DNA from: Naegleria gruberi
Lineage: Eukaryota
Strand: one strand, 5' to 3'
Assembly (NCBI GenBank): GCA_000004985.1
Contig: GG738861.1
DNA: 64,000 nucleotides
Translations under genes and position numbers: made by a program
The notes under the pieces: model-generated
The model's database searches: none
What the model saw: the letters and a program-made list of their open reading frames with translations, nothing else
Told to the model about the DNA's origin: nothing
In this document: positions 15,745 to 47,678 of the stretch, in pieces
Numbering within the stretch: the first letter of the stretch is position 1
How the letters are laid out: the number at the start of each line of letters is the position of its first letter

Positions 15745-15756
15745 TTCCCGCCAAAT
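15745..15756 (+). promoter_or_regulatory. E2F-like site TTTCCCGCCAAA ~65 bp upstream of MUS81 ATG
   Basis: GC-rich dodecamer embedded in very AT-rich promoter; matches E2F/DP consensus TTTSSCGCSAAA; related GGCGCC motifs recur in other promoters of this window. Confidence 0.3.
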
Positions 15757-15817
15757 ACAATCTATCCAAATTTAAAAACACTTCCAGTAAAAATTAGAAG
15801 TGTAACAAGAAAAAAAA

Positions 15818-18742
15818 ATGCCCAACAATAACCAGGCATCATCTTCATCACAACAGACGATTCCAATCGGAAGAACACTCAATCCGGAGATGATTGCTTG
15901 TCTGGAGGAGGAACTACAAAGATGCTCCAAAAACACAAGGAATAATGGTGCCAAGCATTATGTTTTGGGGTTACGGAAGGCAATATCTTCCTTGGAAAAG
16001 TATCCAAAGAAATTGTATAATGGAAATGAAGCTAAAACTCTGAAGGGAATTGGAGATAAGATGGCCTATAGAATTGATAAATATTTGAAGGATAATAATA
16101 TTGATTTGGGGACTCCACCTCCGAATGCTGGAAATAATAGTAATCATAATAATAATAATGGAGGTGAAACAGATGGACAATCTGTGTCACAAGATGAATC
16201 GAATAATGATCAAACAGCAAAGAAGAGGAAAAGAACAAATAGAAAATACATTCCGAAATTTAAAACTGCTGCCTGGGCGATTATGATATCACTGTACAGA
16301 CATATTAAGAGTAGTGAAAAGGATTATGCTACAAAAACACAATTGATTGCTCTATGTGAAACACTGACTGATGTACCTATGGAACAATCAACCAATGCAT
16401 CTAAATATACTGGCTGGAGCTCAATGAAAACTCTAATGGAAAAAGAATTGATAACCTCAGAGAAGAAGGGAAGATCGAATGGTTTCATGCTCACTCCTAG
16501 AGGTAGAAAACTGGCAAGAAAACTTCACACAGCTGAGAAGGAAGTATCTGAACTTGAGTTTGAATGGGAAGAATCAGAGGAGGAAATGTCATCTGAAGAG
16601 GAACCAGAAGAACCAAAAGAAAAACCAAAAAAGAAAAAGAAACAACCAGTTAGCTCAGCAGAATCAGAGTCTCTTTCAAACTTTGAAGCAAGTCAATCCA
16701 GCCAACAATCAGACAGTGAAATAATTAGTCGTAGTTATGATTCCGATCCAGAGCTATGTGAAGATATATTCACTCAACTTGGATTTTCACAAAGAAAAAA
16801 CAATCCACCATCAATAACCAATGAACTCTCTCAATCATCACAAACAAGCTATAGTGAGCTTAGTGATGACGATGATGATATTCTACTCCACGAGAAAGAC
16901 GCCTCCCCAAAGCCCTCCATATCATCCAATACTTCATCTCAGAATCCTGTATATATGATCCTTTCAGATGATGAAGATGAGGATGTTGCATTTGATTATA
17001 GTAAGCTTCCTCTCAAATTCAGCTATATGGACAAACTAGATAAACCGGTCAATCGAATAGAGGATGCCAAGTTTCATTTCAGTACTTCAGCTGGTGAAAT
17101 AAGAATCAAGGTTCTACTCAAAAGTCCTTTGAAAAATGAAGAGACCCTTGCTGATCTATTTGATGAAATAATCGAAAAGAAGCGTGTAAATAATGAACTA
17201 ACAGTCACTGGCTTCATAAAGGAGTCGAGATGTGTACCTTATGCGAGCAATTTAGCTAAAAATCTGATTATTGATCCAGCTATTTTCAAATTCTATTCAA
17301 CAAATGAGATTGAGAACACTAGCAACAAGAAGAAATCATCAAAGGATAATATCAGTAGTGCTACCATATTTAATACAGATTTACAGACATGTAATCCTAT
17401 TGAGCGCGCACCATCCAGAGCCATCCAGCCATCCAAGCCAACCGTTGTACCTCTCGATATTGAACTAAGTGATGACGAAGATGTAACACTTGAGAAACCA
17501 GTCACTCAGAAAAAAACAAAGAAAAAGAAACACCTAGCCGAATCTTCAGAACCCTCTTCCTCCCAACAACAAACACAATATCGACCAGCAATTCCTGTGC
17601 CTAGACCAAGAGAAATGATGAGATCTATAGATTTTTCAATGCCACCACCATCCTTTGTTCCAGCCAGAAGTCTTGTTACTAACAACCAAATTAGCTCGTC
17701 CTCTACCTCCACAGCAAGTACATCAAGTAGTTCTCAATCCATACCGAATAGCACCCAAATTACCACCTCTAACCACATACCAACGAATCCAGTAATTCTC
17801 CAATCCAATAGACAACCCAAGACAATTGTAAACCTAAAGAGCTTTTTAGAAAATCCAGAACCTAATCCCTCCTTCGCCTTTTCAGCTGCTGACAGCAATA
17901 CTACCTCCACAAAATCAAATGATTTACCAAAAGTACCTTACAAGATTCACCTTATTATAGATCAAAGAGAGAGAACAGGACATAATGATAGAAAATCATT
18001 CTGTGACACACTTAAAAAACGAGGTGTAGATGCACTGATTTCACAACTTGGAATGGGAGATGTTATTTGGACACTCACAACTGAAGAGAGATCATATGTG
18101 TTGAATTATGTTTTGGAGAGAAAGGATATTAATGATCTAGCTGGAAGTATTAAGGATGGAAGATATAAGGAACAAAAATTCAGAATGAACAATTCTAATT
18201 GTTCCAATATTTTTTATTTGATTGAAAGAGGTTTCAAACACCAAGATCAACTCTCTCAGTCTTCACTTGAAACCTCCATTAGAAAGATTTTAACAGATGG
18301 CATTTGTGTAAAACATACTGCATCATTGGAAGCATCCATTAATTTTCTTGTCATCATGAACTCTCTCATTATAGAATTAGTTGAAAGAGATGGCCTTACA
18401 CCACACCAACTACTCATTCCACACGAAATTACTGGCGAAATGTACAATCCCTCACTCGAACAGTACAATGTTCTTTTCAAAAAGAATAATGACATTTCCA
18501 AGAATGAATTATTTGGCAGACAGCTCACTACCATCCAAGGTGTATCCTCTCAAATAGCAGAATCAATCATTAAGAAACATCCAACACCAACCTCCCTGTG
18601 TCAAGTCTTTCTGGACTCATCAACACCTCATGACCTGGCTCTGAAAAACTTTGCCATCGAATCATCAGTTGAAGGTGTTTGCACTCGTAAAATTGGAGCG
18701 AAACTCTCCCAGAAAATTTATCAATACTTTTTCCAAGATTAA
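15818..18742 (+). CDS. MUS81: Crossover junction endonuclease MUS81 (ERCC4/XPF-family nuclease) with long disordered S/E-rich middle region
   Basis: N-terminal helix-hairpin-helix/winged-helix blocks (LNPEMIACLEE...EKYPKKLYNGNEAKTLKGIGDKMAYRID); C-terminal ERCC4 domain with MUS81 signature ERKDINDLAGSIKDGRYKEQKFRM, IDQRER, GDVIWTL. Confidence 0.8.
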   Translation: MPNNNQASSSSQQTIPIGRTLNPEMIACLEEELQRCSKNTRNNGAKHYVLGLRKAISSLEKYPKKLYNGNEAKTLKGIGDKMAYRIDKYLKDNNIDLGTPPPNAGNNSNHNNNNGGETDGQSVSQDESNNDQTAKKRKRTNRKYIPKFKTAAWAIMISLYRHIKSSEKDYATKTQLIALCETLTDVPMEQSTNASKYTGWSSMKTLMEKELITSEKKGRSNGFMLTPRGRKLARKLHTAEKEVSELEFEWEESEEEMSSEEEPEEPKEKPKKKKKQPVSSAESESLSNFEASQSSQQSDSEIISRSYDSDPELCEDIFTQLGFSQRKNNPPSITNELSQSSQTSYSELSDDDDDILLHEKDASPKPSISSNTSSQNPVYMILSDDEDEDVAFDYSKLPLKFSYMDKLDKPVNRIEDAKFHFSTSAGEIRIKVLLKSPLKNEETLADLFDEIIEKKRVNNELTVTGFIKESRCVPYASNLAKNLIIDPAIFKFYSTNEIENTSNKKKSSKDNISSATIFNTDLQTCNPIERAPSRAIQPSKPTVVPLDIELSDDEDVTLEKPVTQKKTKKKKHLAESSEPSSSQQQTQYRPAIPVPRPREMMRSIDFSMPPPSFVPARSLVTNNQISSSSTSTASTSSSSQSIPNSTQITTSNHIPTNPVILQSNRQPKTIVNLKSFLENPEPNPSFAFSAADSNTTSTKSNDLPKVPYKIHLIIDQRERTGHNDRKSFCDTLKKRGVDALISQLGMGDVIWTLTTEERSYVLNYVLERKDINDLAGSIKDGRYKEQKFRMNNSNCSNIFYLIERGFKHQDQLSQSSLETSIRKILTDGICVKHTASLEASINFLVIMNSLIIELVERDGLTPHQLLIPHEITGEMYNPSLEQYNVLFKKNNDISKNELFGRQLTTIQGVSSQIAESIIKKHPTPTSLCQVFLDSSTPHDLALKNFAIESSVEGVCTRKIGAKLSQKIYQYFFQD

Positions 18743-18899
18743 ACAGTATTCAAATTATTCAGATTCCATATTATTCCAACCCAGTCATTCTCTCCATCAT
18801 GGTGAATTTTTAAATTTATTATCATCATAGCATCGGAAGAAAATTATTGCAATGTGATTCATCAATTTGTTTGATTTTTAAAAATTGAAGTAGAAAAAA

Positions 18900-20714: not shown

Positions 20715-20876
20715 ATCTTATATAAGATTCTTTCAAGATGAATTTTGATCTTTTTGTAATTTTTCACACCTGACTTTAAAAACATGTGATGACATAAATA
20801 GTGATCCAATACTTTCTTGATTAAATAACAACAAATATTAATATTCAAACAATAATGAAATAAATTAACAATCTAT

Positions 20877-21656: not shown

Positions 21657-21907
21657 ATTTTTTAAAGATTCAAAAATAAAATATTTTTATTTAAATTTAT
21701 CTTTTTTCAAACAACTCAATGATGGAATTGATATCAAGCCATTATTATTATTAATAATAAGAATACAAAATCACTCAAGATTGAATTTTTTAATATTCCA
21801 TCCAGATCGAAATAAACTATTTGATCATCGTCCGATTACTTGAATTTCATCAATTTTTAATAATAAAAAAAATTTCAAAGCCTAATTTCTTCAAAAGCTT
21901 CAAATAA

Positions 21908-23866: not shown

Positions 23867-23894
23867 ATATTTTCCAATAATTTTATTGAACTTG

Positions 23895-25484: not shown

Positions 25485-28400
25485 TTATCTAAATTTTGGT
25501 TTTTCGTCAACTTCTGTTGGCTTGACCTTCTTAGTTGAAGATTCTGTTACATCAGCATCAAATAATGCTGAAGTTTCGTTTGGATTGGAATCACCAATAT
25601 TCCTTCTCTTTCTGTTTCCTCCAAACAATGACGATGTATTCAAAGAAGCAGTTTGAGGTGTTTTCAGTTCTTCAACATTTTCCTTATCTACTGGAGAAAA
25701 GTTTCTTGTTGTAATATTGGAAACTAACATCTTGGATCTTCCCATAATTGGTCTATCTTTGGTGAGGGCCGATTGGTTGAGATTGAGTGGAGTTGGAAGT
25801 GAAGCTGATTCACTTGTTGTTGGTCCTCGTTTAATGTAGAATGAGGTTCTGTCTCTGAGAGGTACTTCTGTTGGTGAGTGATTCTTCTCAAAATTGGTAT
25901 TTCCAAACAGAGCTGGTCTTGGTGGAGGATTAAATTGTCGTTTCATATCAGAAAGTTCTTTTTGAGCTCTTTGTAATTCATCCCTCAATTCATCATTTTC
26001 TCTCTTAATCTTTAATTGATATTGAATCTTTTGCTTGTGATTGTTGTGTCCAATTATCTTTTCATGATCTTTTCTTAATGATTCAAGCTCTTCCTTTAGA
26101 CTATTAACTTCAGTGACACTATCTGCATACTTTTGTCTCAAGCTTTCCAATGAAGCCTCTAATTGGTTCTTTTCCGATTTGTATTTTTCTTTCAACTTTT
26201 TCAATGTCTCTTCGTGAATCATTTGTTGTGAGAGGCTTCGTTTTTCGAGGGTAGATAATTGTTCTTTGCTCTCATCATAGTTATTTCTCAAATCGTTAAG
26301 GTCAGACTCTTTTCTCAAGAGGGTTTCTCTTTCAGTTTGAAGAGTTTTGACCAGACTTTCACACTTCTTTTCTACAGTGTTTAATTTTTCAGTCAATCTG
26401 GTGAATTCTTCTCCTGATTGCAATGAACGAATAGATTCCAATTGTTGTTCAATTTCATTTTGCTTGGATTTGATTTGATCTTCTAGAGATTCAATTGTGC
26501 TCAACAGCTTGATATTCTCATTGGAAGCACCATCACTTGAGGTTTTCAAAGCTTCTAATTGTCTTAGAGTTGAATTGAGTTTTTGATTGCTATTGTTCAA
26601 CTCTTGGCCTTTGCTATCGAGCTCAGTCTCGAGGTTAGACACTTGTTCTTCGAGTTTTTGCACTTCCTGTTCACGTTCTTGCAACTTTTCAATGCTCTCT
26701 TCAGCGAGTTGTGTAATGCTTTCATTGTGTTGTTGTACCTCAGAATACTTGCGCTTGAAACTTTCAAGTTCAGAGGTCAAATTAGAGATTTCTGTTTCCT
26801 TCAATTTGAGTTCAATATTTTCATTGATTAATTTATCGTTCAATTCTCTGAACATGGAGTCCTTTTCAGAGGAAATATTGTTGACAAGTTGAACTTGTTT
26901 CTCAAGAGCCAAGGTCAGTTCAGAAATTTGATCGGTGAATTGTGATTTGGATTGTTCCAATTCTTCATTGAGAATCTTGTTTGCTTCCATATTTTCGCCA
27001 AGTTCGAATTTCAATGCCTCAATCAATTCTTGAAGAGAATTGATTTGTTCCTCTCTTTCTCTTCTTAACTGTTCTTCGTTTTCCAATAGTTGTTTCTTTT
27101 CTTCCTCGGAGGTATTACCCATAGAGCTCAAGTGTTGTAAAAGGTCATCATTTCGTTCTTGTTCCAGAGCTAAGCATTGTTTAAGGTTGTTGATAGCATC
27201 TTCATGGGTTGATTTGATGGTTTGGAGAGTATTGAGGGCACTTTGATATTTTTCAGTCATTTCAATCAATTCCCTTTCCGATACTCGAGCACATTCCTTT
27301 AGTTTTTCATTTTCTTCAATGTAGGTAGTGATTTTACCGTTCATGGTTTGAATTTCTTCTACAAGTTGATTTTCACGATCTTGTAACTTGACAATACTTT
27401 CTTCAGCAAGTTGTGTAATACTTTCATAATTTTGCTCTGATTCAGAGAAGTTAATCTTAAGGGTCTCAATTTCGGAGGTTAGCTTTGATAATTCTGCTTC
27501 CTTCATTTTCAGGATTATATTTTCATTGTGAAGTTTTTCATTCAATTCTCTCAGTGTGATATCTTTTTCAGAGGAAATATTGTTGACAAGTTGAACTTGT
27601 TTCTCAAGAGCCAAGGTCAGTTCAGAAATTTGGTCGGTGAACTGTGATTTGGATTGTTCCAATTCTTCATTGAGAATCTTGTTTGCTTCCATATTTTCGC
27701 CAAGTTCGAATTTCAATGCCTCAATCAATTCTTGAAGAGAATTGATTTGTTCTTCGCTTTCTCTTCTAGATTTATCCTCGCTTTCAAGGAATTCTTTGTG
27801 AATTGTGTTGAGCTGTTCAAGTTCGTCGATTGTACTTTGGTATTTATCTTTCATTTCTGCCAAGTCTCTTTCAGATACTTGAATAGAATCCTTTAGCTTA
27901 TCATTGGCTTCACCATAGTGTTTGATTTGTTCAAAGGAGCTCATCAAAGCCTTCTCCTTCTCATCAAGTGCAGACATAAGCATACACTTGGTTGCCACTT
28001 CCTGTTCTAATTGAGAGGATAGAACAGTTTCCTTTTGTTGAGTTTGTTCAGCAAACATTGATTCTTTAGATTTGACTTCTTCAAGTTGAGACTTTAAAGA
28101 TTCAATGCTGGCATCTCTTTCAGATATAGATAGAAGTAACTCTTGCTCTCTGAAAGACAAAGTATCAATACTGGTATTAAGAGTTTCTATTACTACTTTC
28201 AGTTTGGATATTTCCTCATTGGATTGTTCATTCTCCTGCATAGATTCTCCAAATAGCTGTTCTGTGCTTTCTAACTGTTGTTTGAGAGCTTCAATCTCTT
28301 GGTGTGCGAGTATTAATTTAGACTCTGCCTCGTGTTTGGCCATTTCCTCACGTTCTCTCATTTCCTCCAACATTCTAATAGTTTCTTCTTGACCTTTTTG

Positions 28401-30773
28401 GACCATTTGTTGGTTTTCCAAACCTTCCAACATTGCTTCAATTTGAGTCCTCTCCTCTTTTAATTTGATATTTTCTGAAAGCATATTCTCCTTATCAGAT
28501 GCTACTTGTTCTAAAAGTTGCTTGATGCTCTCAAGCTCGCTCCATGCCATTTGCTCCTTTTCTTGGCTTTGTGTTATATCCTTCTTAAGTGAGGCAATAG
28601 TTTCCAAGGATTCCTCATACATTTGTTCTAACCTTGTTATTTCTCCTAACAGTGTTTGATTTTCACTGATTGCTACTTGTTCTTGGAGTATTGAAGAGTT
28701 TCTTCTGTGGCTCTTTTCCATGTCTTGAATTTTGTTGGCAAGTTGTTCCTTTTCGCCAGTTAAATGTCTGATTGAAAGCTCTAAACTTTGAATGTAGGAA
28801 TGTAATTCCTTAAACAACTCCTTGTTAGCTCCAAATTGCTTGGAAAATTGGGATTCATATGAATTAAGTTGATCTTTCAGTTCCATATTTTCAATCTTGA
28901 GCTGAATAACATCTGGATGTTGTTCAGGTGAGAGGGCCTTTTGGAGGGCACTGTCGGCTATAGAGAGGAATTGTTCTTCATTATCAAGTGTGAAATTTTC
29001 AAAATTGAATTTGGAAAACTTTTGTGGTGATTGTGGTCTATCAAAGTCAAAATCTAAACCAGAGACAAAATCTTGTTTTGGATTTTTCACTGATTTTCCA
29101 GTGAGTCTAGCGATCTTTGCCTCTCGCAATCTTAGCAAAAATCTAGTTGATGTTAATAAGCGATCCTTTGAGGATGCAACCTTCTTGAGCTCTTCAACAC
29201 GATGAGTAAGAATGGAATTCTTCTCCTCGTGTTCATCTGTCTGAGCAGAGAGATATACATGTTGTTGTTGTAATGCTATAATATATTGTTCCTTTTCATT
29301 TTCATCCATAGAAAGTTGTGGAGTAGGAGTTTGTGGAACTTCTGAAACTCGTTTGTTTGCCTCCAATAACTGTTTCCTCAGGAGTTTAATTTGTTCTTGC
29401 AAAAATGTAATACTTCCAGATGTCTCTTCATTGATTTTAGCTTCATTCTTAATTCGTTTAGCTCTTTGAGCAAATGTAAGAGTTGACAAGGATTCTGATA
29501 ATGAATTAATGGCAGGACTAATGTTCGCAATAACACAAGTCTTAGAATTCCCTCCAAGAGAATCCTTAAGTAAGAATGTTAATTTGCTATCTCTGTATTG
29601 TACATGCCTAGAAATACCATTAGCAACGTCAACTAGATCCTTGATAACTTTTCCTAGAGTAGAAAGAGACTTATTGATAGAACAAGCTTCTTTCAATCTG
29701 TCTCCTTCGGTATTAGATGTTGATTGTCTTTCCGAACCAGCAAGATCGATAAGATTAAGCCTAGATGTACGCGTTTTTGTTCCTCCCTCTGATGTTTCTT
29801 GTGATTTCATATAGATGGTAAAAACAGAATGAGAACGTGATGATTGATTATTCATAGATGTTGAGCCAACATGTCTATTTGATAGACCCTTCTTCAAAAT
29901 GGCTAAAGCTTCAACTGGTGTTGCAATATCCTCATGAATTAATTGTTCAACATAAACTCCAGATTTGATATCCTCTCTTAAATTTAAACTCTTGGATACA
30001 GTACCACCATTAAAAAGAGGTAATTTAGGTGTTGAATCCAATAAATCTGTAATTCTTTCGTTGTAAATTTCCAGAAATGAGCAACTGACAATAAACTTGA
30101 TTTCTTTTTGTTGTCTTTTCTTTTCAATTTCTGAAAATATGTATGATAGAACTCTTGGTATTAAACCTGCAGATGAAGGCAAGTGTAAATTGTGCATTGA
30201 TGACAACAAGTCATCTTCCATTACGTCGTCATTGTGTGACGTTCCCATAGTAAAAGTTTTACCACTTCCTGTTTGCCCATAACAAAAGATTGTACCGTTA
30301 TATCCAGCTAGATAACTATCCACTATTGGTTTGCCACAAAACTCGAACATATCTTTTTGTGTTGTTGTTGGGCTTGCTACGTGGTCGAAAGTAAAGGTTT
30401 TTGGTTTCTCTTTTGGATTATTGCTAATAACTTGAAGTGATCTTTTTGTTGCTGGATCTACTTGGATGCAATTTTGTGTTTCATTGTCAAAGAGTGGTCT
30501 AACTCTTACTACCACTCTCACACTCGATTTATCGTCATCATCTTTTGAAAATATTTCTGTCCTGTTGGTTGCAGACAGAGTTTCGTCATCACCTAAAGAA
30601 GGAAGAGGTGAGAATAATCCTCCTCTTGAGACTATTGGAGACACCATAAAGGATGGAGTTTGAATGTTTTGTCTTCTTGTTGTGAAGGAACTTGTTGTTG
30701 GAGAGGCAAGCATTCGTTCCAAATCTTGGGACGGAGAAAACACGCCACTCAAATTATTTAAATTATTCCTCAT
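25485..30773 (-). CDS. Kinesin heavy chain-like protein: N-terminal motor domain followed by ~1300 aa coiled-coil stalk (kinesin-12/KIF15- or CENP-E-like), contains internal tandem duplication
   Basis: Motor motifs SSVRVVVRVRPL, GQTGSGKTFTM (P-loop), SSRSHSVFTIY (switch I), LNLIDLAGSE (switch II); rest heptad-rich E/K/L/Q; segment REREEQINSLQELIEALKFELGENMEANKILNEELEQSKSQFTDQISELTLALEKQVQLVNNISSEKD occurs twice. Confidence 0.9.
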   Translation of the reverse strand: MRNNLNNLSGVFSPSQDLERMLASPTTSSFTTRRQNIQTPSFMVSPIVSRGGLFSPLPSLGDDETLSATNRTEIFSKDDDDKSSVRVVVRVRPLFDNETQNCIQVDPATKRSLQVISNNPKEKPKTFTFDHVASPTTTQKDMFEFCGKPIVDSYLAGYNGTIFCYGQTGSGKTFTMGTSHNDDVMEDDLLSSMHNLHLPSSAGLIPRVLSYIFSEIEKKRQQKEIKFIVSCSFLEIYNERITDLLDSTPKLPLFNGGTVSKSLNLREDIKSGVYVEQLIHEDIATPVEALAILKKGLSNRHVGSTSMNNQSSRSHSVFTIYMKSQETSEGGTKTRTSRLNLIDLAGSERQSTSNTEGDRLKEACSINKSLSTLGKVIKDLVDVANGISRHVQYRDSKLTFLLKDSLGGNSKTCVIANISPAINSLSESLSTLTFAQRAKRIKNEAKINEETSGSITFLQEQIKLLRKQLLEANKRVSEVPQTPTPQLSMDENEKEQYIIALQQQHVYLSAQTDEHEEKNSILTHRVEELKKVASSKDRLLTSTRFLLRLREAKIARLTGKSVKNPKQDFVSGLDFDFDRPQSPQKFSKFNFENFTLDNEEQFLSIADSALQKALSPEQHPDVIQLKIENMELKDQLNSYESQFSKQFGANKELFKELHSYIQSLELSIRHLTGEKEQLANKIQDMEKSHRRNSSILQEQVAISENQTLLGEITRLEQMYEESLETIASLKKDITQSQEKEQMAWSELESIKQLLEQVASDKENMLSENIKLKEERTQIEAMLEGLENQQMVQKGQEETIRMLEEMREREEMAKHEAESKLILAHQEIEALKQQLESTEQLFGESMQENEQSNEEISKLKVVIETLNTSIDTLSFREQELLLSISERDASIESLKSQLEEVKSKESMFAEQTQQKETVLSSQLEQEVATKCMLMSALDEKEKALMSSFEQIKHYGEANDKLKDSIQVSERDLAEMKDKYQSTIDELEQLNTIHKEFLESEDKSRRESEEQINSLQELIEALKFELGENMEANKILNEELEQSKSQFTDQISELTLALEKQVQLVNNISSEKDITLRELNEKLHNENIILKMKEAELSKLTSEIETLKINFSESEQNYESITQLAEESIVKLQDRENQLVEEIQTMNGKITTYIEENEKLKECARVSERELIEMTEKYQSALNTLQTIKSTHEDAINNLKQCLALEQERNDDLLQHLSSMGNTSEEEKKQLLENEEQLRREREEQINSLQELIEALKFELGENMEANKILNEELEQSKSQFTDQISELTLALEKQVQLVNNISSEKDSMFRELNDKLINENIELKLKETEISNLTSELESFKRKYSEVQQHNESITQLAEESIEKLQEREQEVQKLEEQVSNLETELDSKGQELNNSNQKLNSTLRQLEALKTSSDGASNENIKLLSTIESLEDQIKSKQNEIEQQLESIRSLQSGEEFTRLTEKLNTVEKKCESLVKTLQTERETLLRKESDLNDLRNNYDESKEQLSTLEKRSLSQQMIHEETLKKLKEKYKSEKNQLEASLESLRQKYADSVTEVNSLKEELESLRKDHEKIIGHNNHKQKIQYQLKIKRENDELRDELQRAQKELSDMKRQFNPPPRPALFGNTNFEKNHSPTEVPLRDRTSFYIKRGPTTSESASLPTPLNLNQSALTKDRPIMGRSKMLVSNITTRNFSPVDKENVEELKTPQTASLNTSSLFGGNRKRRNIGDSNPNETSALFDADVTESSTKKVKPTEVDEKPKFR
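26590..27070 (-). repeat. Intragenic tandem duplication, copy 2 (within kinesin coiled-coil)
   Basis: ~200 nt (26861-27062) nearly identical to 27561-27762 (a few mismatches), flanks ~70-80% identical; period ~700 nt. Confidence 0.8.
27290..27770 (-). repeat. Intragenic tandem duplication, copy 1 (within kinesin coiled-coil)
   Basis: See copy 2; direct repeat in same reading frame preserving heptad register. Confidence 0.8.
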
Positions 30774-30894: not shown

Positions 30895-30930
30895 TTTGGC
30901 GCCATCTAACAGACTAAAATTGGCGCCAAG
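30895..30930 (+). promoter_or_regulatory. Pair of E2F-like sites (TTTTGGCGCCATC and AATTGGCGCCAAG) ~125-150 bp upstream of kinesin start (minus-strand gene)
   Basis: Two GGCGCC cores 24 bp apart in an otherwise ~20% GC divergent promoter (kinesin - / Zn2Cys6 +). Confidence 0.3.
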
Positions 30931-31539: not shown

Positions 31540-33938
31540 ATGTACCCACACAGTGGAAGTATCAATACACCTGCTCATGATGAGTTTAATGATGATGAAT
31601 TCGACCGACTGGTGGGCCTATCACTGAATAAAATGTCTACGCTGACACCCAATAACAATAATAATCAACAAAATCAGTGGTATTTCTCTGATAATATGTT
31701 TGGAGATTTTAATTTAGGAGGAATGAATAATGGTGGTGTTACTAGTAGTTTGGATACAAGTCAGTTGGCTTTTACTCCACTCATTGAACAACATCGAAAT
31801 AATGATGATTGTTGCCAATTGAATACTACTAGCACTTTTGATATTGATAATGATATTGATGCCATGACAAACAAAACTACACCAACAACTCAAGGAAAAT
31901 CAAAGGAAAAGAAAAAGCCAAAGATTGCATGCGTTTATTGTAACAAATTGCACAGTATGTACTAGTCACAATATGAAATTCCTTAAACATTCAATTTTTC
32001 TCATTTTAGAAAAGTGTGATGGCGAATCTCCAAATGCTTGTACCAGATGTAAGAAGAAGGGTATTCCATGTGGTATGTAGTTTGTGTGAAAATCATTTTA
32101 AACTTATCATGTTAGTTTATTTACCACCTCAAAAGAGAGGTCCAAAGTCAAAGAAGAGAAAGGCAAATGATGGAGATGAGGAAGAATACACTGTAGAACA
32201 ATTAACATGTGCTGCTGGATTGTGTGCCAACCAAAATCAACAAATCCAACAAATTCAACAACAACAAGCTCAACAACAATTTAATGCTCCTGTATATTTC
32301 AATCAATCACCACCTCAACAAGCTCAACAAACTCAACAACAACAAATTGTACAACACCAAACTCAACAACCTCAAAAAATAGTTAGCTCTGTTGACTTGG
32401 ACTCTTACATTACTGAAGCTATTTTCTCTTCCAATAAGAATACTAATCCATCTACTGCTCTTACCAATTTCTATTCACAACCGCAACAACCTAGTCCACT
32501 TACAGGTCTCCAATTTGCAGTCAATGTTCATACAAGAACACTCGTCGATCAATTCTTAGAGTAAGTAGTATTTTCATGCATTCATGCATTAAACATTTCT
32601 AGTTCTGTGACATGCCACTCCCTTGTAGATAGAAACATGTTGGATAATGCCCTCAATAAGGCTGTTATTTTTTCATCTGAACCAACTGGTTACCAACTCT
32701 TAACAAATATTGTATGTGCAATGGGCGCTCAAAGATTAGAGGACAGAAAGAACTGTATTGAATTTTTCAATAGAGCAAGAAATCAAGCTAGTTACTTGTT
32801 TGATAAGCCATCTAGGGAAGCTTCATGTGCTTTGAGTTTGATGGGTATTTATGCTTGTTCAGAAGGTGAAAGAATCAAAGGTCACATGTACAACAGAATT
32901 GCTTTGGACATGTCTACGGACTTGTGTTCTTACCAAATTGAAACCGACAAGTATTACCAAACTCTTTCTGCTCTCTCATTGGCAACAACGTTCTCTAAAT
33001 GGTTGTTCGAGTTGAACATTCTCAAAGTTGAAGAAAATTCATTTGATTGCCTTCTTAAGAATGCCAATAATCCAAACCATCCTCAAATTCCATCCATTCG
33101 TGAACTTGTTAAAAATGTTAAAAACTATATTGGTTCTTCGAAGTGTATGCGCGAGATTGAAGAAATAGAAACCAAAATTGCCGATATGAGTCTTGTTAAG
33201 GGAAGTGAAGAAGTCTCTTTCACAGCCATTTTGGTTTACTACTTGTTGGTCTCAAGACTTGCCATGTTGACAAATAACCAAATCGAATATATCAAGATTT
33301 TGAGAAAATTAGAAACTATTGAAAAGTATATTGAATCAGAAAAGTTTAACAGAGATGATCTCCAAAAGAATGTGCACAGATTCTGTCTCTATTCTCTTAG
33401 ATCGGATATTTTGGTGAGATGTGGACTAGATAAGATGGGTTTACACTGTGCTACCAAGGCAACTGGTTTAGCAGCTAAGCCAACTTTCTGGAAGTCAGCA
33501 CCAGCTATTATTCTCTTCTTCCCTATCCTTATCAACATTAACCTTAGTGTTAATGATAGTAGTATGTCTATTGAAAATTACAAATCACTCAAGGTTATCA
33601 GCTCTAAATTTGTAGTTTTAAAATATACCCTATTTGATATGATTAATATCATGAATAAGAGATCAGAGTTTGCTGATCTCTTAGAGAGTGAAAGACAACA
33701 CGTTCCACAAGGTATTACAAATTCAAGTGGATATCTTCCATTCACTAATGATGTTCCTCAATGTGAATCATGTCCTCCACAGGATTGGAATACTAATATC
33801 TTTGACCAAAACAATAACAACGAGTCATGTTTCCCTAACTCTGATCTTACAGAATTATTGCAACAACTAGGAACTGTGAGCGATCATGAATCCTATCAGA
33901 ACAAGTTAGAATCGATATGGCAAACAATTGGTCAATAA
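31540..33938 (+). CDS. Zn(II)2Cys6 (Gal4-type) binuclear-cluster transcription factor with poly-Q region and C-terminal fungal-TF-like regulatory region; 4 exons (31540-~31953, ~32010-~32072, ~32107-32565, ~32605-33938)
   Basis: Spliced reading gives ACVYCNKLHSKCDGESPNACTRCKKKGIPC = CX2CX6CX5-8CX2CX6-8C Gal4 signature split by two GTATGT introns; followed by basic linker KRGPKSKKRK, Q-rich tract, and large C-terminal domain. Confidence 0.75.
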
Positions 33939-36277: not shown

Positions 36278-36366
36278 TTTTTTGAATGATATTTAAAATG
36301 TTATTTATTACTACATAATTTTGTAACAATAGCATACTGATTGTTAACTATAAAGTATCTATTGAA

Positions 36367-38921: not shown

Positions 38922-39118
38922 TTTTTCATTCCTTTATTCAAATCCATAGATGGTCATCTATGAAGAATATCATGATGGAAAAGATGATGGAGGTGGAAAG
39001 ATCGAGACACACTTATTGTCATCCAAGTCTAGATCTTCGTGGGTTTCATTATTATTTTTCATAATCATCATCAAGAAGATTTTATTGTGTCTCGGAGGAA
39101 GATTATCAACATCAAAAA

Positions 39119-40267: not shown

Positions 40268-40272
40268 TAAAT

Positions 40273-41155
40273 TTATTTCCAACTTAATCCTGAAATACCA
40301 TGTAGTTGAGTGTGTAAAGATTTGGTATTAGCCCATCCACTATTTACATAGTTCAAATCTTCATCTTCAGCTAACTTTTTGTGTTCTTCTTGCTTTTTGT
40401 AATAGTAGGCCATCAATCGTTTTTGGTCAGCTTCAGAGACTGGTTCTTCTCTTGGAGGAGCTCCAGCCCCCTTTCTTCCAATTTTTGCAATAATTTGAGT
40501 CTTGTCATTCCTGCCAATTGATTTAGTATCCATAAGTTTCTTATCTCTTGGTAACTCCTTTCCACAAAACCAAAGTGTGCAAGTTTCTGGATCATACATT
40601 TCCTTCTAATGATTTTCAGTATTTCAGTAAATAAAAATCAATTAAAACCATTCAATAATTTAAACTTACAACTCTGAATTCATCACTGAAAATAAATGTA
40701 AGAGGATCGGATTGAGGGAGACCCATTGGATAGGCCATTGTCACAACACCCTTCACGTTCATTATACAATCAGTTAATTCCTTTTCAGTGGTTGAATCCT
40801 TTTTATCAGCTCTCTCATGTGAAAGAACTCTATTGCATTCCTCAATTACATTATTTACAGTTGTCAACAAGTTTTGATCAGTGATTTTAACTCCGAATGA
40901 TGGTTCATCCTTTTTCTTTGTGTTTTCATCTTCATCCAAAGATAACTCCTCAATTTTTGGAGTGTCTTCCTCTTCTTGTGGTAAAATTGGACCCTTATCC
41001 TTCAATCTAATCAGTTCGGAAACCAAATTCTTCAGTTTCACTCTCAAATTATTCAATTTTGCCAAATCCCTTATAATTGTGTCCAATTCAATATCATAGT
41101 GAGCTTCATGCATAAACATGTCCTTCTCGGAATGCTTGACTTTAATGTATACCAT
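40273..41155 (-). CDS. CFAP298: Cilia- and flagella-associated protein 298 (Kurly/C21orf59 family), 2 exons (~40674-41155, 40273-~40611)
   Basis: MVYIKVKHSEKDMF..., MAYPMGLPQSDP (IVYPMGLPPYDP), then after GTAAGT intron KTQIIAKIGRKGAGAPPREEPVSEADQKRLMAYYYKKQEEHKKLAEDEDLNYVNSGWANTKSLHTQLHGISGLSWK vs human KTKIIAKIQQRGQGAPAREPIISSEEQKQLMLYYHRRQEELKRLEENDDDAYLNSPWAD... Confidence 0.8.
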
Positions 41156-41254
41156 CCTCTATTTCTCAAGTTGTGCTATTTTTTATTGTTATCTTAATTA
41201 TCAACAACATACAACACTTTCCGAAAACCAACATTCATACAACGTTCCGTAGCA

Positions 41255-41272
41255 AAAATTGGCGCCATTTTT
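41255..41272 (+). promoter_or_regulatory. E2F-like site AAAATTGGCGCCATTTTT ~105 bp upstream of CFAP298 start
   Basis: GGCGCC core flanked by A/T runs in AT-rich intergenic region between CFAP298 (5' end) and Kae1 (3' end). Confidence 0.3.
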
Positions 41273-41357
41273 CAATTTTGTAATGGTCCTCATTCATATT
41301 ATCCCATTTAAAACATATTAGAAATTGAGAAGCTATTATCATTGGAAAAGAATTGAT

Positions 41358-42470: not shown

Positions 42471-42586
42471 TTTTTAATAATATTTTAATTTAAAATAATT
42501 ATTGGATGATTTTAAAAATAGAGTTCTTAGATGTTTCAGAGCAGTGAGGTTTATTGATCTATTTCTTTAGATTATGAATTAAGAAA

Positions 42587-43747: not shown

Positions 43748-43851
43748 TTTTTAATTTAATAAAGTTTCATCCAAACTTCAGTGCTTTGGATGACAACAAG
43801 GTACAGTATTTGATAGTTGTGGATGACAATATTTAATAGATTTGAGTTTAT

Positions 43852-46800
43852 TTAAAATAATTCAGAAGAAGAACCTTCAGTAATGTTGGTATGACACAGT
43901 GGACAATGTCTGTACTTGTAAATTTCATGCTCTACGGCTCTATGTTTACAGGTAGAACAAGTCCAGAAATCTTGATCTCCAATATTTCTACCACTCACAA
44001 TACAAGTATAGAATGGAGCATTGCAGGAGGCACATGACTGCTCGTAATCGAATGTTTCATTACTGCAGGTTGGACATGGTTTTGTTTCCAAATCTGTTGA
44101 GTTAACAGGGCTATCTCTGAAAATATCAATGGCCAATTGTTCATACTTTTCCTTATCGTGTTCTGATAAAGCATCCATTGATTCTAACTTGATGAAAGCT
44201 TTGGAGCAAACCTTGAATTCTCTAGCATAGAAACCTGCTAAAGCAAGGAGCGAGTACAATTCCTTTGGAACAAAGTATTCTTCATACGATGAAACCAGCC
44301 TCATTGTAGTATTCAAACAATCACTAAGTTTGAATTCGGTAAGTTGTTTTTGGGCAAGCAAGAAAAAGTGATAAGCCTCAGCTCCTCTCCATGGATTTTC
44401 AAAATTGGTAGAAGCATCATGAGAGAGCATGGTTTGAAGTGCCTTGTTTGGATTCATTCTTGTTGCTTGATCATTTAACAATCTGGCTCTATATCTATCA
44501 ATCTCCAAAGCTGAAAGAACATAGAATTTCTTTGCTCTCAGTGGATGTAATTTCATCTTTCCCTCTTCCTCACCAAGTTTGGCAAGAATCTTGGCTGACT
44601 CTGTATTTCTGTTAGCTTTTTGGTATAATTCGATTGCTGCTGTCATATCTCCTCTAGAAACTAGATGGTTGGCATACTTGTACAGAATATCTTCAATTTC
44701 ACTCATATTGTGCTTTTCAGCCAATGTAACAGCTTCATCCCATTGATTCAATTCAACACAAACGTCGATAGCTTGCTTGATCTTACCACCCTTGACGAGA
44801 GCTTGAATAGCTTGAGTACTCAAACCAACAGAAGCCAACTTTTCACCGATTGGATGTAAAAGTGGATTATTCTCTGGTAGGTCATCAACCATTCTTTCCA
44901 ATGACTCAAAGTCTCCAATCCTATAATAAGCTTCAATTAATTTTTCAAAGTTTCTTGCCTTAACATAAAATTGAATTGAACGTTCCCATTGTTGTCTCTC
45001 AGAATAGAAATCTCCCAAGTGATTAAACACATCAATCAACATTTCATCACTTCCATTCATTTCTCTGACAAGACTGAGAACTTTCTTCCAGTCCCCGTAT
45101 CTCTTTCTCAAATCGATGGCAAGATCCTTTCTATCGATGGAACGATAGATCTTTTCTGCTTCATCCAATCTGTGGAAGTATGCTTCTATTTCTGCCTTTT
45201 GCTTAGCTTCGTTATCCAATTGTTTGATTTGTTTTACAAAATATACACCATGGTAATCACCACATTGGATGTAAGCCTTGTAAGCCATATCCAATTCTAA
45301 TTCAGACATTGCTGCTTCTGCCAATAATCTCCACAATCTTGGGTGAGGATTATCTTTAACAAATTCGTTAGCATCCCTCAAGCTGACACTTCTGATAATT
45401 TCCTTTGTATCTCTCAACGAACGACTTTCATAAGTGATGGCACAGTCAGAATCTGGATTATCTGGATTTGCCATAATATCATCCATAAACACTGACTTAA
45501 TTTTAAGATTGTTGAAAGCACACATGTAAGCTGAGGTAACTACAGGTTCCTCAGGAGTTAAATCTCTGAATGTGTACATCTTGGTCTTTTCCATTATAGC
45601 AAATAATGATGGATTATCGTCAGCCCATCTCATATCCCAAACATCTTTCTTTTCCAAATCTGTTTTATCAGCCATGATATTACCCTTCTTTTTCTTCTTT
45701 TCGCTTTGTACCATTTGTTGGGCTGCAACAACAGAAGATAAACTGTAAACAGTGAAAGTACTGTTAATATCAATGAGTGACAATTTGGTGCAATCACAAT
45801 TGATAGCAATTTGGAGAGGTCTACACATGACAGAACATGATCCAAGATATGCCAAAGTTGGTAGAAGTGAATAAATATTCACAGTACCAGATTCTCTTGC
45901 AATAATAAGGAATTTCTCATTTGAAAATACAGCACAAATAGCGTCCTCGGTAGTAGTAAGTTCCAATTTTGTTTCATCTTCAATCTTTTTAAATTTGTTT
46001 TGATCAATGTGCATTAAATATTGTTCAGATTCTCCCTTAATATTCAATATGTTGCCTTGAGTATTTTGCTTTGCTCTATAATTCCAAACATAAACATTAC
46101 AATCAGAGCAAACAATTACGTGATACTTGGTCATGGTGACGAATTTTGGTTCAACAGATTGCGACTTTGTTTCCACTGGACTACCTATCGAGTTACAAAT
46201 AATTATGACGAATGCTTCCTTTGGTGTTTCTGTTTTGGTGAGCAAAACACAATTTTCTCCACAAGCACTCAAAGCTAATAATTTCTTAATGTACTTTACA
46301 TATTTTTGTCTAGTCTTGTGATTATAAAATACTACACATTGCTCTGGTCTTTCTAATTTGGTAAAGGCATATACTACAGTCTTTGAGAAATAGCCCCATC
46401 TATAACTTGGTCTGACATTGGCAAAGAAAATATTTGCATCTACACCTAGAGCCAATCTCAAACCAGATCCTTCCCAAGTTACACTCTTTACACCATTGCC
46501 AGGTACTTTGAGAGTCTTTAAATGTTTACCATAAGGGGAATAAAATTGAATGATACCCATTGGTTTTCCATCCAAGTCTTGTTGACCAGCAAGAGCTAAA
46601 ACAGTACCAGATGGATTCCATTTTGGTTCATTGATGAGCATACCAGCATCGATTAGGACTGGATCATCATCCAAGTCACCTCTCATCAATTGGCACCTTC
46701 CATTTCTATAACAAATTGCTAGTGTTGGAGCATTAAGATCTGGATAACCTTCTCTTCCATCATACCAGTCAACACCAGCCAAAATATTATTTGATTGAGG

Positions 46801-47520
46801 ATTCATATCTACACAAGTAATATTGATTGAATGCTAGAAGAGTAAGAAAATCTAGTGTAATTAAAATACTTACCAATTTGATTCCTGAATTGGCATCAAA
46901 TAACCAAACTTCTCCATTTCCAGTTCCGAAGAGCAAATATCTTGCATCGGGAGACCATTCAACATTAACCAATTGAGTTTTCAAACTCTTTCCCCAATTT
47001 CTATTTCCGTCCACTCCACCAACAATTACAGCACCTTTAAAAATTGTAAATATTTCAAAATCATTCGACAATTTCACTTACCATCATCGTAGACAATACA
47101 AATCTTTTGACCATCACTAGACCACTTTAAATCCTTCACCACTGATTTTTCTCTATTATTCAACATTTCCTCTTCCCATTCCTTCTTTTGCTTATTATAA
47201 TTCCAAACAATAATGAGACCACTAGCATCGCTAGAAGTTAATTTTTCATTTTCCTCATTCCAACTCACTCTCATTACATTGGATGGAAGCTGATCTTTAC
47301 TTTCCTTTCCGGAGTGGCCAGCAAGAGTTTGATTGAATTCTAAACTTGTTGGTGCTGTTACACCTCTTTGATTAATATCAGCCTTAGTTTCTAACTTTAA
47401 AACTTTTAATAAACCATTCTCACCTCCGCAAGCAATCCAACCATGATAGCCATTCCAAGATATGTGATTGAGCTTGAGCCCATTAGGTATGCTCACCTTC
47501 TTGTTCAAGTATACCCACAT
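43852..47520 (-). CDS. WDR35: Intraflagellar transport protein 121 (WDR35; IFT-A complex), 3 exons (~47081-47520, ~46863-47024, 43852-~46812)
   Basis: N-terminus [44 protein letters not shown] vs human WDR35 [44 protein letters not shown]; later [15 protein letters not shown] identical block, [11 protein letters not shown]-terminal Cys cluster; WD repeats then TPR-like helices. Confidence 0.9.
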
Positions 47521-47661
47521 TGTATTTTAATATATACACAACTAGATAATAATAGTATCTTCTTGTACCCTTGAGTGATGATGTAGATTAGATGTTTTTA
47601 CTCCACCAGCCAAAAAAACAAGTGTCCTGTCGATACAATTTTTTTGTAGTTTTGTATGGTT

Positions 47662-47678
47662 ACTATTGGCGCCAATGT
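47662..47678 (+). promoter_or_regulatory. Palindromic E2F-like site ATTGGCGCCAATG ~148 bp upstream of IFT121 start
   Basis: TTGGCGCCAA perfect palindrome in AT-rich intergenic region upstream of minus-strand IFT121. Confidence 0.3.

What the first reader, a model, noticed from the sequence alone, without database searches (positions are those of the whole stretch)
15745..47678. Recurrent GGCGCC (E2F/DP-like) promoter motif upstream of MUS81, a mitotic-type kinesin, CFAP298 and IFT121
Intergenic DNA in this window is about 20% GC. The hexamer GGCGCC or CCCGCC, flanked by T or A runs, nevertheless appears five to six times, all in 5' intergenic regions:
- TTTCCCGCCAAA, 65 bp upstream of MUS81
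- TTTTGGCGCCATC and AATTGGCGCCAAG, about 125-150 bp upstream of the kinesin
- AAATTGGCGCCATTTTT, about 105 bp upstream of CFAP298
- ATTGGCGCCAATG, a perfect palindrome, about 148 bp upstream of IFT121
- TTTTAGGCGCCAAAAATT, in the LplA-LKB1 spacer

All fit the E2F/DP consensus TTTSSCGCSAAA. The apparent targets are a DNA repair gene, a mitotic motor and two cilium genes, which would be a coherent cell-cycle or basal-body and flagellar-assembly regulon. Chance expectation for GGCGCC in 64 kb at this base composition is under one occurrence, and none were seen inside coding sequence.
Basis: partly seen in the sequence, partly recalled or inferred. Interest (0 to 1): 0.55.

Follow-up and report, generated by a model that had tools for sequence, protein, structure and literature searches.

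The report
Conserved E2F-type promoter sites in Naegleria
Short GC-rich sequences that match the binding site of the cell-cycle regulator E2F sit just upstream of a mitotic motor gene, a DNA-repair gene and two flagellum genes in the amoeboflagellate Naegleria gruberi, and most recur upstream of the same genes in related species, so they are probably real switches and a candidate for the unknown control of flagellar genes.

Summary
The window is Naegleria gruberi. GGCGCC occurs 5 times against 0.5 expected. All five copies are in non-coding DNA, where only 0.07 are expected. A sixth site, TTTCCCGCCAAA, lies 66 bp upstream of MUS81. The broader E2F core SSCGCS occurs at only 7 places in 64 kb, none of them coding.

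The gene labels are right: MUS81, a KIF15-like kinesin, CFAP298, IFT121 and an LKB1-like kinase. Five sites lie 66-149 bp upstream of start codons; the sixth is 580 bp upstream.

N. gruberi encodes E2F, DP, an E2F7/8-like protein and RB. The recognition helix of its E2F is identical to that of human E2F4.

In 10 orthologous loci from five other Heterolobosea sources, 9 of 10 matching spacers carry an E2F core. Site density there is 2.8 per kb, against 0.34 per kb in other intergenic DNA. Paired sites precede the kinesin in all four species examined.

These are most likely working E2F/DP sites, which is an expected kind of element. The less expected part is that they are conserved upstream of two flagellar genes, in an organism whose cilia-gene regulators are unknown. 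Binding, direction of regulation and genome-wide scope remain untested.

The parts
15744..15755 (+). TTTCCCGCCAAA, an E2F-type site 66 bp upstream of the MUS81 ATG (15818). It lies in a divergent spacer shared with an unannotated ORF, 15031-15570(-).
   Evidence: This is the only perfect match to TTTSSCGCSAAA in the window, and the complementary strand reads GCGGGAAA. An orthologous site, TTTTGGCGCCAATC, lies 40 bp upstream of MUS81 in an ENA heterolobosean, but N. fowleri has none.
30895..30906 (-). GATGGCGCCAAA in gene orientation: the proximal E2F-type site, 125 bp upstream of the kinesin ATG (30773).
   Evidence: It is one of a pair of sites whose centres are 24 bp apart.
30919..30930 (-). 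CTTGGCGCCAAT in gene orientation: the distal E2F-type site, 149 bp upstream of the kinesin ATG.
   Evidence: It aligns as a conserved island, TTG[G/C]CGCC, with N. lovaniensis and Willaertia. Paired sites are also present in the ENA heterolobosean L009.
41258..41269 (-). AATGGCGCCAAT in gene orientation: an E2F-type site 106 bp upstream of the CFAP298 ATG (41155) and 92 bp downstream of the Kae1 stop.
   Evidence: N. fowleri has GAATCGCGCCACA 81 bp upstream of its CFAP298, the only SGCGCS in 9.1 kb. N. lovaniensis has only a weak TTGACCGCCATT.
47665..47676 (.). ATTGGCGCCAAT, a perfect 12-bp palindrome: an E2F-type site 148 bp upstream of the IFT121 ATG (47520).
   Evidence: It aligns with N. 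fowleri CTTTGGCGCCATG (133 bp upstream, the only GGCGCC in 13.7 kb) as an island in otherwise diverged spacer. Acrasis kona has TTTGGCGC 11 bp upstream of its IFT121 although the upstream neighbour gene is different.
51185..51196 (+). TTAGGCGCCAAA, an E2F-type site in the 921-bp LplA-LKB1 spacer. It is 337 bp after the LplA stop and 580 bp before the LKB1-like ATG (51773). Its target gene is uncertain.
   Evidence: No orthologous locus was available for comparison.
59009..59020 (+). TTAGCCGCCAGA, a weak candidate site (two mismatches) about 55 bp upstream of a copper-ATPase ORF. It is probably not a member of the set.
   Evidence: It is the only other SSCGCS core in the window. The gene was identified.
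15818..18742 (+). MUS81 gene (NAEGRDRAFT_48155).
   Evidence: Pfam domains ERCC4, HHH_8, MUS81 winged helix and EME1/MUS81_C. Accession.
25485..30773 (-). KIF15-like (kinesin-12-like) kinesin gene, 1762 aa (XP_002678628.1).
   Evidence: Pfam Kinesin domain. It is 100% identical to N. gruberi D2VBC5, and the best named relatives outside Heterolobosea are mostly KIF15.
40273..41155 (-). CFAP298 gene with two exons, 40652-41155 and 40273-40599 (NAEGRDRAFT_66170; the public model covers exon 1 only).
   Evidence: Pfam PF11069 CFAP298 at E=4.8e-35 on exon 2. ORFs, identifier.
43852..47520 (-). IFT121/WDR35 gene with at least three exons (NAEGRDRAFT_32701).
   Evidence: Pfam WDR35 and IFT121 domains. 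The N-terminal exon 47074-47520 matches the profile from position 1. It is 100% identical to P0121.
51773..53874 (+). LKB1/STK11-like kinase gene with two exons.
   Evidence: Pfam Pkinase domain. The best solved-structure hit is STK11 at 8e-74, against 5e-43 for the next family.

Best explanation
The GGCGCC hexamers, and the CCCGCC at MUS81, are the cores of genuine cis-regulatory elements under purifying selection. They are of the E2F/DP type: TTGGCGCCAA or TTTCCCGCCAAA, with half-site TTTSSCGC = GCGSSAAA. They lie in the proximal promoters of a KIF15-like kinesin, MUS81, CFAP298 and IFT121 of Naegleria gruberi.

The most likely mechanism is as follows. The single Naegleria E2F pairs with DP, or alternatively the E2F7/8-like DEL protein with two DNA-binding domains acts alone. 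The winged-helix RRXYD recognition helices bind the GCGC core. The RB pocket protein, whose binding motif is present at the E2F C-terminus, switches the complex between repression and activation according to CDK activity. This would tie the expression of these genes to entry into, or exit from, the cell cycle.

Shown here:
- the sites exist, are far above chance and are non-coding;
- they are proximal to start codons;
- they recur upstream of the orthologous genes in other Heterolobosea;
- the factor family is encoded in the genome, with an unchanged recognition helix.

Inferred:
- that E2F/DP is the protein that binds;
- that RB controls it;
- the sign of regulation;
- that the flagellar genes belong to a wider E2F-controlled differentiation programme.
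For: **Enrichment.**
- GGCGCC occurs 5 times against 0.52 expected.
- In non-coding DNA it is 5 against 0.07 expected, and GGCGCCAA is 7 against 0.02-0.03 expected. These are the top non-repetitive words.
- The SSCGCS core occurs at only 7 places in the window, all non-coding.

**Consensus.**
- TTSSCGCSAA matches at three of the sites (5 matches counting both strands), against 0.13 expected.
- GCGSSAAW gives 8 matches against 2.25 expected, 7 of them at the six sites.
- The literature consensus is GCGSSAAA, with RRXYD contacting GCGC (PMC4862756).

**Factor.**
- NgruE2F, NgruDP, NgruDEL and NgruRB sequences are given in PMC4862756 source data.
- Pfam finds E2F_TDP plus CC-MB in the E2F, and DP plus E2F_TDP in the DP.
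- The best solved relative of the E2F DNA-binding domain is human E2F4, chain 1CF7_A. The stretch [24 protein letters not shown] is identical.

**Conservation.**
- Kinesin: paired sites in N. lovaniensis, Willaertia and the ENA heterolobosean L009, although the neighbouring genes differ.
- IFT121: N. fowleri and Acrasis kona.
- CFAP298: N. fowleri.
- MUS81: the ENA heterolobosean L010.
- Pooled over 10 loci and 108 kb, there are 8 SSCGCS sites in 2.84 kb of target spacers, against 0.34 per kb in other intergenic DNA (P about 8e-6). The SGCGS core is present in 9 of 10 target spacers.

**Not a repeat.** The flanks of the six sites are unrelated, with identity about 0.3.
Against: - No binding or expression data could be obtained. 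The supplementary expression tables are not held.
- The N. fowleri MUS81 promoter has no core in 572 bp.
- The Willaertia IFT121 and N. lovaniensis CFAP298 spacers have only degenerate versions, AAGCGCC and GACCGCC.
- No canonical G1/S target (MCM, PCNA, RNR, CDC6) lies in any sequence available, so the expected core regulon could not be checked.
- Transcription start sites are unknown.
- Flagellar genes are induced when Naegleria leaves the cell cycle. In the classical model that is when E2F-RB represses, so the direction of control at IFT121 and CFAP298 is not obvious.
- The sample is small: six sites and four or five genes.
Confidence: 0.7

Rival explanations
1. The sites are real, conserved promoter elements, but they are bound by a lineage-specific or otherwise non-E2F factor that happens to prefer a GGCGCC palindrome flanked by A/T. 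The resemblance to E2F sites would then be coincidental.
For: Conservation and enrichment show function, not the identity of the factor. N. lovaniensis uses GCCGCC variants, which also resemble GCC-box-type motifs. Flagellar genes are not classical E2F targets. The regulators of Naegleria cilia genes are unknown (PMC12183034).
Against: - The full 10-12 bp sites, not just the hexamer, follow the E2F consensus. This includes the asymmetric form TTTCCCGCCAAA.
- Orthologous sites swap between GGCGCC, CCCGCC, CGCGCC and GCCGCC cores. That is exactly the S-degeneracy of TTTSSCGC.
- The genome encodes E2F and DP with unchanged DNA-contacting helices.
- Two of the four genes, a mitotic-type kinesin and MUS81, are ordinary cell-cycle genes.
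Confidence: 0.17
2. The sites are E2F sites, but some serve other genes than those named. The site at 51188 may belong to an unannotated transcript or to no gene. The MUS81 and kinesin sites may serve the divergent neighbours. The CFAP298 and IFT121 sites may act on the 3' ends of Kae1 and AsnRS. On this reading the 'ciliary' association is accidental.
For: The MUS81 and kinesin spacers are divergent promoters. The site at 51188 is 580 bp from the LKB1-like ATG. The Kae1-CFAP298 and AsnRS-IFT121 gene pairs are syntenic in Naegleria and Willaertia, so linkage alone cannot separate them.
Against: - In Acrasis kona the gene upstream of IFT121 is an MSP-domain gene, not AsnRS. TTTGGCGC still sits 11 bp before the IFT121 ATG.
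- The kinesin keeps paired sites in four species with four different upstream neighbours.
- The sites are closer to the named genes than to the divergent partners.
- With about 38 promoters in the window and 5 carrying sites, the chance that both cilium genes are among them is about 0.014 (own calculation).
Confidence: 0.1
3. Chance or compositional artefact: a rare GC-rich word that happens to fall in spacers, or remnants of a repeat or mobile element.
For: With an order-3 background over the whole window, the hexamer alone reaches only P=0.003. That does not survive correction for 2080 words. CCCGCC alone is at expectation.
Against: - All copies are non-coding, and the longer word GGCGCCAA has P of 1e-14 to 6e-8 depending on the background model.
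- The motif recurs at the orthologous spacers in other species, where it is often the only such word in 9-14 kb.
- The flanks share no similarity.
- There is no tRNA or Rfam family at the sites.
Confidence: 0.03

Closest known systems
Canonical E2F/DP sites of animal and plant cell-cycle promoters (TTTSSCGC / GCGSSAAA; E2F4-DP2-DNA structure 1CF7)
   Same: - The sequence is the same. This includes the palindromic form TTGGCGCCAA and the asymmetric form TTTCCCGCCAAA.
- The position is the same, in proximal promoters, often as paired sites.
- The factor family is present, with an identical recognition helix.
- Two of the target genes, a mitotic-type kinesin and MUS81, are typical proliferation genes.
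   Different: - The organism is a heterolobosean, very distant from animals and plants. I found no description of E2F sites for it.
- Two targets are flagellar genes with no role in an amoeba that lacks microtubules in interphase.
- Binding and RB dependence are not shown.
E2F4/5-DP with Multicilin/GEMC1 in vertebrate multiciliated cells
   Same: In that system an E2F-DP complex is redeployed to drive de novo basal-body and cilium assembly in cells that have left the cell cycle (PMC12183034). This is the same cell-biological situation as Naegleria differentiation. The closest solved relatives of the Naegleria E2F are E2F4 and E2F5.
   Different: - The vertebrate programme depends on geminin-family co-activators, which were not looked for here.
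- As the review describes it, that programme acts mainly on centriole expansion and on the downstream factors FOXJ1 and RFX. The review names no IFT-A or CFAP298-type genes among its targets, and Naegleria lacks FOXJ1 and RFX.
- The Naegleria link rests on two promoters.
RFX (X-box) and FOXJ1 ciliary regulons of animals; XAP5 in Chlamydomonas
   Same: Each is a short promoter-proximal motif shared by IFT and motility genes that coordinates cilium assembly.
   Different: The motif and the factor family are different. RFX, FOXJ1 and XAP5 are reported absent from Naegleria (PMC12183034). The sites here are not X-boxes.
Fungal SBF/MBF cell-cycle boxes (CGCGAA / ACGCGT)
   Same: They are functionally equivalent G1/S promoter elements with an overlapping CGCG-containing consensus (PMC4862756).
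   Different: SBF and MBF are KilA-N-derived factors confined to fungi. The Naegleria sites have the G at the position that E2F strictly requires (SGCGS) and are mostly GGCGCC.

Membership tests
E2F/DP binding site | The sequence fits TTTSSCGC / GCGSSAAA with an SGCGS core. | tested here: met
   Three sites are perfect 8-mers. The other three match 7 of 8 positions (GCGCCAAT). One perfect 12-mer, TTTCCCGCCAAA, is present. Consensus taken from PMC4862756.
E2F/DP binding site | The organism encodes E2F and DP proteins with the RRXYD DNA-recognition motif. | tested here: met
   NgruE2F (RRIYD), NgruDP (RRVYD), NgruDEL and NgruRB are given in PMC4862756 source data. Pfam finds the E2F_TDP, CC-MB and DP domains. 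The recognition helix is identical to human E2F4, chain 1CF7_A.
E2F/DP binding site | Promoter-proximal location. | tested here: met
   Five of six sites lie 66-149 bp upstream of start codons, in spacers of 202-766 bp. One site is 580 bp upstream. Transcription start sites are not known.
E2F/DP binding site | Over-represented relative to background, and retained at orthologous promoters. | tested here: met
   (within the window). (10 loci; 2.8 per kb against 0.34 per kb; 9 of 10 target spacers hold a core).
E2F/DP binding site | Present upstream of canonical G1/S genes (MCM2-7, PCNA, RNR, CDC6, ORC1) in the same genome. | not tested
   No such gene lies in the window or in any fetched locus, and the whole genome was not available through the tools.
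E2F/DP binding site | Physical occupancy by E2F/DP, and RB- or CDK-dependent, cell-cycle-linked expression of the target genes. | not testable with these tools
   The expression tables of the Naegleria mitosis and differentiation RNA-seq studies are not held. No binding data exist in the searched library.
Ciliogenic E2F4/5-Multicilin programme | E2F-DP sites at genes needed for de novo basal-body or cilium assembly. | tested here: inconclusive
   E2F-type sites are conserved upstream of IFT121 (3 of 4 species) and CFAP298 (2 of 3 species). That is only two genes, and neither is a centriole-duplication gene.
Ciliogenic E2F4/5-Multicilin programme | A geminin-family co-activator (MCIDAS/GEMC1). 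| not tested
RFX X-box ciliary regulon | An X-box motif upstream of IFT genes, and an RFX factor in the genome. | tested here: not met
   The shared motif upstream of IFT121 and CFAP298 is TTGGCGCCAA, not an X-box. RFX is reported absent from Naegleria (PMC12183034).

The most novel reading that the evidence does not exclude
In Naegleria, and more widely in Heterolobosea, the E2F-DP-RB module directly controls the flagellar and basal-body assembly regulon that is switched on when amoebae leave the cell cycle and differentiate. E2F would then be the missing cilia-gene regulator in a lineage that lacks RFX, FOXJ1 and XAP5. The E2F-ciliogenesis link known from vertebrate multiciliated cells would reflect an ancestral coupling between cell-cycle exit and cilium assembly, not a vertebrate invention.
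Probability: 0.25. Interest if true: 0.8.

Novelty: new member of a known kind. Interest (0 to 1): 0.5.

Why it matters
E2F sites upstream of a mitotic kinesin and a repair nuclease simply extend a LECA-old circuit to a new lineage. That is expected once E2F, DP and RB are known to be present.

The value lies in the two flagellar genes. Naegleria builds basal bodies and flagella from nothing within about an hour, with a large wave of transcription. A 2025 review states that the factors responsible are unknown, because RFX, FOXJ1 and XAP5 are all missing (PMC12183034).

A conserved, sharply defined 10-bp element upstream of IFT121 and CFAP298, together with a named candidate factor, turns that open question into a test. 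The test needs only existing data: the genome sequence and the published differentiation and mitosis RNA-seq.

Tried and rejected
- **Look-up of the N. gruberi contig.** An exact-product look-up of the kinesin found nothing on record. No N. gruberi sequence beyond the window could be read, so no genome-wide count was possible.
- **Expression class of the genes.** The supplements of Fritz-Laylin & Cande 2010 and Kennard et al. 2025 are not held. The preprint text does not mention kinesin-12/KIF15 or IFT.
- **Whole-window hexamer scan with an order-3 background.** GGCGCC reaches only P=0.003, which is not significant after correction. I replaced this with the scan of non-coding DNA only.
- **CCCACG.** This word also looked enriched in non-coding DNA. 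Three copies are inside the tRNA-Lys gene and the others lie in likely unmasked exons, so I dropped it.
- **tRNA or ncRNA explanation.** There is only one tRNA in the window, far from the sites, and no Rfam family matches.
- **Repeat or mobile-element explanation.** The flanks are unrelated.
- **Orientation bias.** All six sites read SSCGCCAA towards the gene. Only three sites are asymmetric, and the orthologues do not keep the orientation, so I make no claim.
- **Prior reports.** Searches for E2F motifs in Naegleria promoters, or E2F control of cilia genes in protists, found none.
- **CFAP298 homologue search.** It returned few named relatives. Orthologous loci were reached through the syntenic Kae1 gene instead.

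Full report
**Source and genes.** The window is from Naegleria gruberi. The 1762-aa ORF at 25485-30773(-) is 100% identical to N. gruberi kinesin D2VBC5 / XP_002678628.1, which lies on a 507-kb contig.

| Gene | Coordinates | Evidence |
|---|---|---|
| MUS81 | 15818-18742(+) | ERCC4, HHH_8 and MUS81 winged-helix domains |
| Kinesin | 25485-30773(-) | Named relatives outside Heterolobosea are mostly KIF15 |
| CFAP298 | exons 40652-41155 and 40273-40599(-) | PF11069 at E=5e-35 on exon 2 |
| IFT121/WDR35 | 43852-47520(-) | First exon matches the WDR35 N-terminal profile from position 1 |
| LKB1/STK11-like kinase | 51773-53874(+) | Best solved-structure hit is STK11 |

The neighbours that lack the motif are housekeeping genes: V-ATPase subunit C, apyrase, a DEAD-box helicase, eIF3g, a SET-domain gene, prolyl oligopeptidase, Vps26, Kae1, a TPT transporter, AsnRS and LplA. 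The copper ATPase has only a weak two-mismatch candidate site (GCCGCC at 59012).

**The observation.**
- GGCGCC occurs five times, at 30898, 30922, 41261, 47668 and 51188, against 0.52 expected. No shuffle out of 100 reaches five.
- CCCGCC occurs once, against 1.17 expected. It is not enriched as a hexamer.
- The 12-mer at that place, TTTCCCGCCAAA, is the only perfect match to TTTSSCGCSAAA in the window.
- About 80% of the window is ORF-like, and all six sites lie in the remaining 12.8 kb.
- An unbiased word scan of that 12.8 kb gives GGCGCC 5 against 0.07 expected, and GGCGCCAA 7 against 0.02-0.03 expected with order-1 and order-2 background models. Only AAT/TAA-type low-complexity words rank higher.
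- The generalised E2F core SSCGCS is found at just seven places in 64 kb, all non-coding. These are the six reported sites plus GCCGCC at 59012, about 55 bp upstream of the copper ATPase.
- Over the whole window with an order-3 model the hexamer alone reaches only P=0.003. The case therefore rests on the restriction to non-coding DNA, the extended word and conservation.
- Distances to start codons are 66 bp (MUS81), 125 and 149 bp (kinesin), 106 bp (CFAP298), 148 bp (IFT121) and 580 bp (LKB1-like).
- The spacers are 25-31% GC, not 20%.
- The flanks of the six sites share no similarity beyond tTGGCGCCAA. None lies in a tRNA or a known RNA family. They are therefore not copies of a repeat.

**What the motif is.** The literature consensus for E2F is GCGSSAAA (= TTTSSCGC). 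The invariant RRXYD helix of E2F and DP contacts the GCGC core (PMC4862756).
- Three of the sites are perfect 8-mers.
- The other three read GCGCCAAT.
- TTSSCGCSAA matches at three of the sites (5 matches counting both strands), against 0.13 expected.

N. gruberi has the factors. The source data of PMC4862756 contain NgruE2F, NgruDP, NgruDEL (E2F7/8-like, with two DNA-binding domains) and NgruRB. Pfam confirms E2F_TDP plus the CC-MB domain in the E2F, and DP plus E2F_TDP in the DP. The closest solved structure to the E2F DNA-binding domain is human E2F4 in the E2F4-DP2-DNA complex. The stretch [24 protein letters not shown] is identical. The C-terminus, DDFMFEMESGEGVSDLFL, resembles the pocket-protein-binding tail of E2Fs. 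That last point rests on my own knowledge and was not tested.

**Conservation.** I fetched ten orthologous loci, 108 kb in all. They come from N. fowleri, N. lovaniensis, Willaertia magna, Acrasis kona and one ENA metagenome sample containing a heterolobosean.

| Gene | Species or sample | Site found |
|---|---|---|
| Kinesin | N. lovaniensis | TTTGCCGCC twice, 14 bp apart |
| Kinesin | Willaertia | CCCGCCAAAAGTTGGCGCCAT, holding the only GGCGCC in 13.8 kb |
| Kinesin | ENA heterolobosean | CCCCGCCAAAACTTTCCCGCTCGAAAA |
| IFT121 | N. fowleri | CTTTGGCGCCATG, 133 bp upstream; the only GGCGCC in 13.7 kb; aligns with the N. gruberi site as an island in diverged spacer |
| IFT121 | Acrasis kona | TTTGGCGC, 11 bp before the ATG in a 57-bp spacer; the upstream neighbour is a different gene |
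| IFT121 | Willaertia | Only a degenerate TTAAGCGCCTAAAA |
| CFAP298 | N. fowleri | GAATCGCGCCACA, 81 bp upstream; the only SGCGCS in 9.1 kb |
| CFAP298 | N. lovaniensis | Only a weak TTGACCGCCATT |
| MUS81 | ENA heterolobosean | TTTTGGCGCCAATC, 40 bp upstream |
| MUS81 | N. fowleri | No core in 572 bp |

The kinesin therefore has paired sites in four of four species, counting N. gruberi, and each species has a different upstream neighbour.

Pooled, the SSCGCS core occurs 8 times in 2.84 kb of target spacers (2.8 per kb). The rate is 0.34 per kb in other intergenic DNA and 0.13 per kb in genes. This gives P of about 8e-6 against other intergenic DNA and 3e-8 against all other sequence. The 5-mer core SGCGS is present in 9 of 10 target spacers. 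The cores drift between GGCGCC, CCCGCC, CGCGCC and GCCGCC among orthologues, which is the degeneracy the E2F consensus allows.

**Mechanism.** The best-supported reading is that these are working E2F/DP (or DEL) sites under RB control. For the KIF15-like kinesin and MUS81 this is the ordinary proliferation regulon.

For IFT121 and CFAP298 it is less ordinary. Naegleria amoebae have no basal bodies or cytoplasmic microtubules, and they induce flagellar genes only when they stop cycling and differentiate (bioRxiv 10.1101/2024.01.08.573270; PMC12183034). Whether the sites repress these genes in cycling amoebae or activate them at differentiation cannot be decided here.

With roughly 38 promoters in the window and 5 carrying sites, the chance that both cilium genes are among them is about 0.014. 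This is my own calculation, and it is suggestive only.

**Comparison with what is known.** In kind, these are E2F sites. I found no report of E2F sites in Naegleria promoters, and none of E2F control of cilia genes in a protist. The nearest functional parallel is the E2F4/5-Multicilin programme of vertebrate multiciliated cells. Its defining co-activators were not examined here. RFX, FOXJ1 and XAP5, the known cilia-gene regulators, are reported absent from Naegleria, and its cilia-gene factors are stated to be unknown.

**Limits.**
- No whole-genome scan was possible.
- No canonical G1/S gene could be examined.
- No expression tables were available.
- No transcription start sites are known.
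- The site at 51188 has no secure target.
- Two ciliary promoters are a small base for claiming a regulon.

**Verdict.** It is a new member of a known kind of element. It also gives a specific, cheaply testable lead on an open question about flagellar gene control.

Noticed in passing
L011:6742-6781 (N. fowleri, VFQX01000027.1): A pair of E2F-type sites, TCTCCCGCCAAAT and TTTCGCGGCAAAAA, lies 63 and 37 bp upstream of the gene after MUS81. That gene encodes a 659-aa coiled-coil protein with no Pfam family. These are the only such cores in the 9.5-kb locus, while the N. fowleri MUS81 promoter itself has none.
   Followed up: partly
window 59009-59020: TTAGCCGCCAGA is the seventh and last SSCGCS core in the window. 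It sits about 55 bp upstream of a 1355-aa copper-transporting P-type ATPase ORF (59072-63139). It has two mismatches to the E2F 12-mer and is probably chance.
   Followed up: partly
window 31540-33938 (+): The gene divergent from the kinesin has cysteine patterns (CVYCNKLH...; CDGESPNACTRCKKKGIPC) that look like a fungal-type Zn2Cys6 cluster split by an intron. Pfam did not match the separate exons. A Zn_clus gene is also present in the Acrasis locus L005.
   Followed up: no
window 47620-47650 (-) and L003:4895-4915: About 20-30 bp downstream of the IFT121 E2F-type site, N. gruberi and N. fowleri share CTACAAAAAA(A)TTG. The CFAP298 spacers of N. fowleri and N. lovaniensis share AAAAAATACAACAAC. 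These may be core-promoter or start-site elements.
   Followed up: no
window 63250-63322 (-): A tRNA-Lys(UUU) gene, the only tRNA or Rfam hit in the window. It accounts for half of the apparent CCCACG enrichment in non-coding DNA.
   Followed up: yes
window 40273-41155 (-): The public N. gruberi model for CFAP298 (NAEGRDRAFT_66170, 155 aa, 'predicted protein') covers only the first exon. The second exon, which carries the CFAP298 Pfam domain, is missing from the model. In N. lovaniensis the CFAP298 model is fused to the downstream RFWD3-like gene.
   Followed up: partly
L002:13737-13765 (Willaertia magna): TTTCCCGC and CCCGCG lie within about 45 bp upstream of a TPR-repeat gene (12044-13714, minus strand). 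This is another candidate E2F-type promoter site outside the orthologue set.
   Followed up: no
L003, L004, L007, L008 versus the window: Local gene order AsnRS-IFT121 is kept between N. gruberi, N. fowleri and Willaertia, and Kae1-CFAP298 is kept between N. gruberi, N. fowleri and N. lovaniensis. The neighbourhoods of the kinesin and MUS81 are not conserved.
   Followed up: yes
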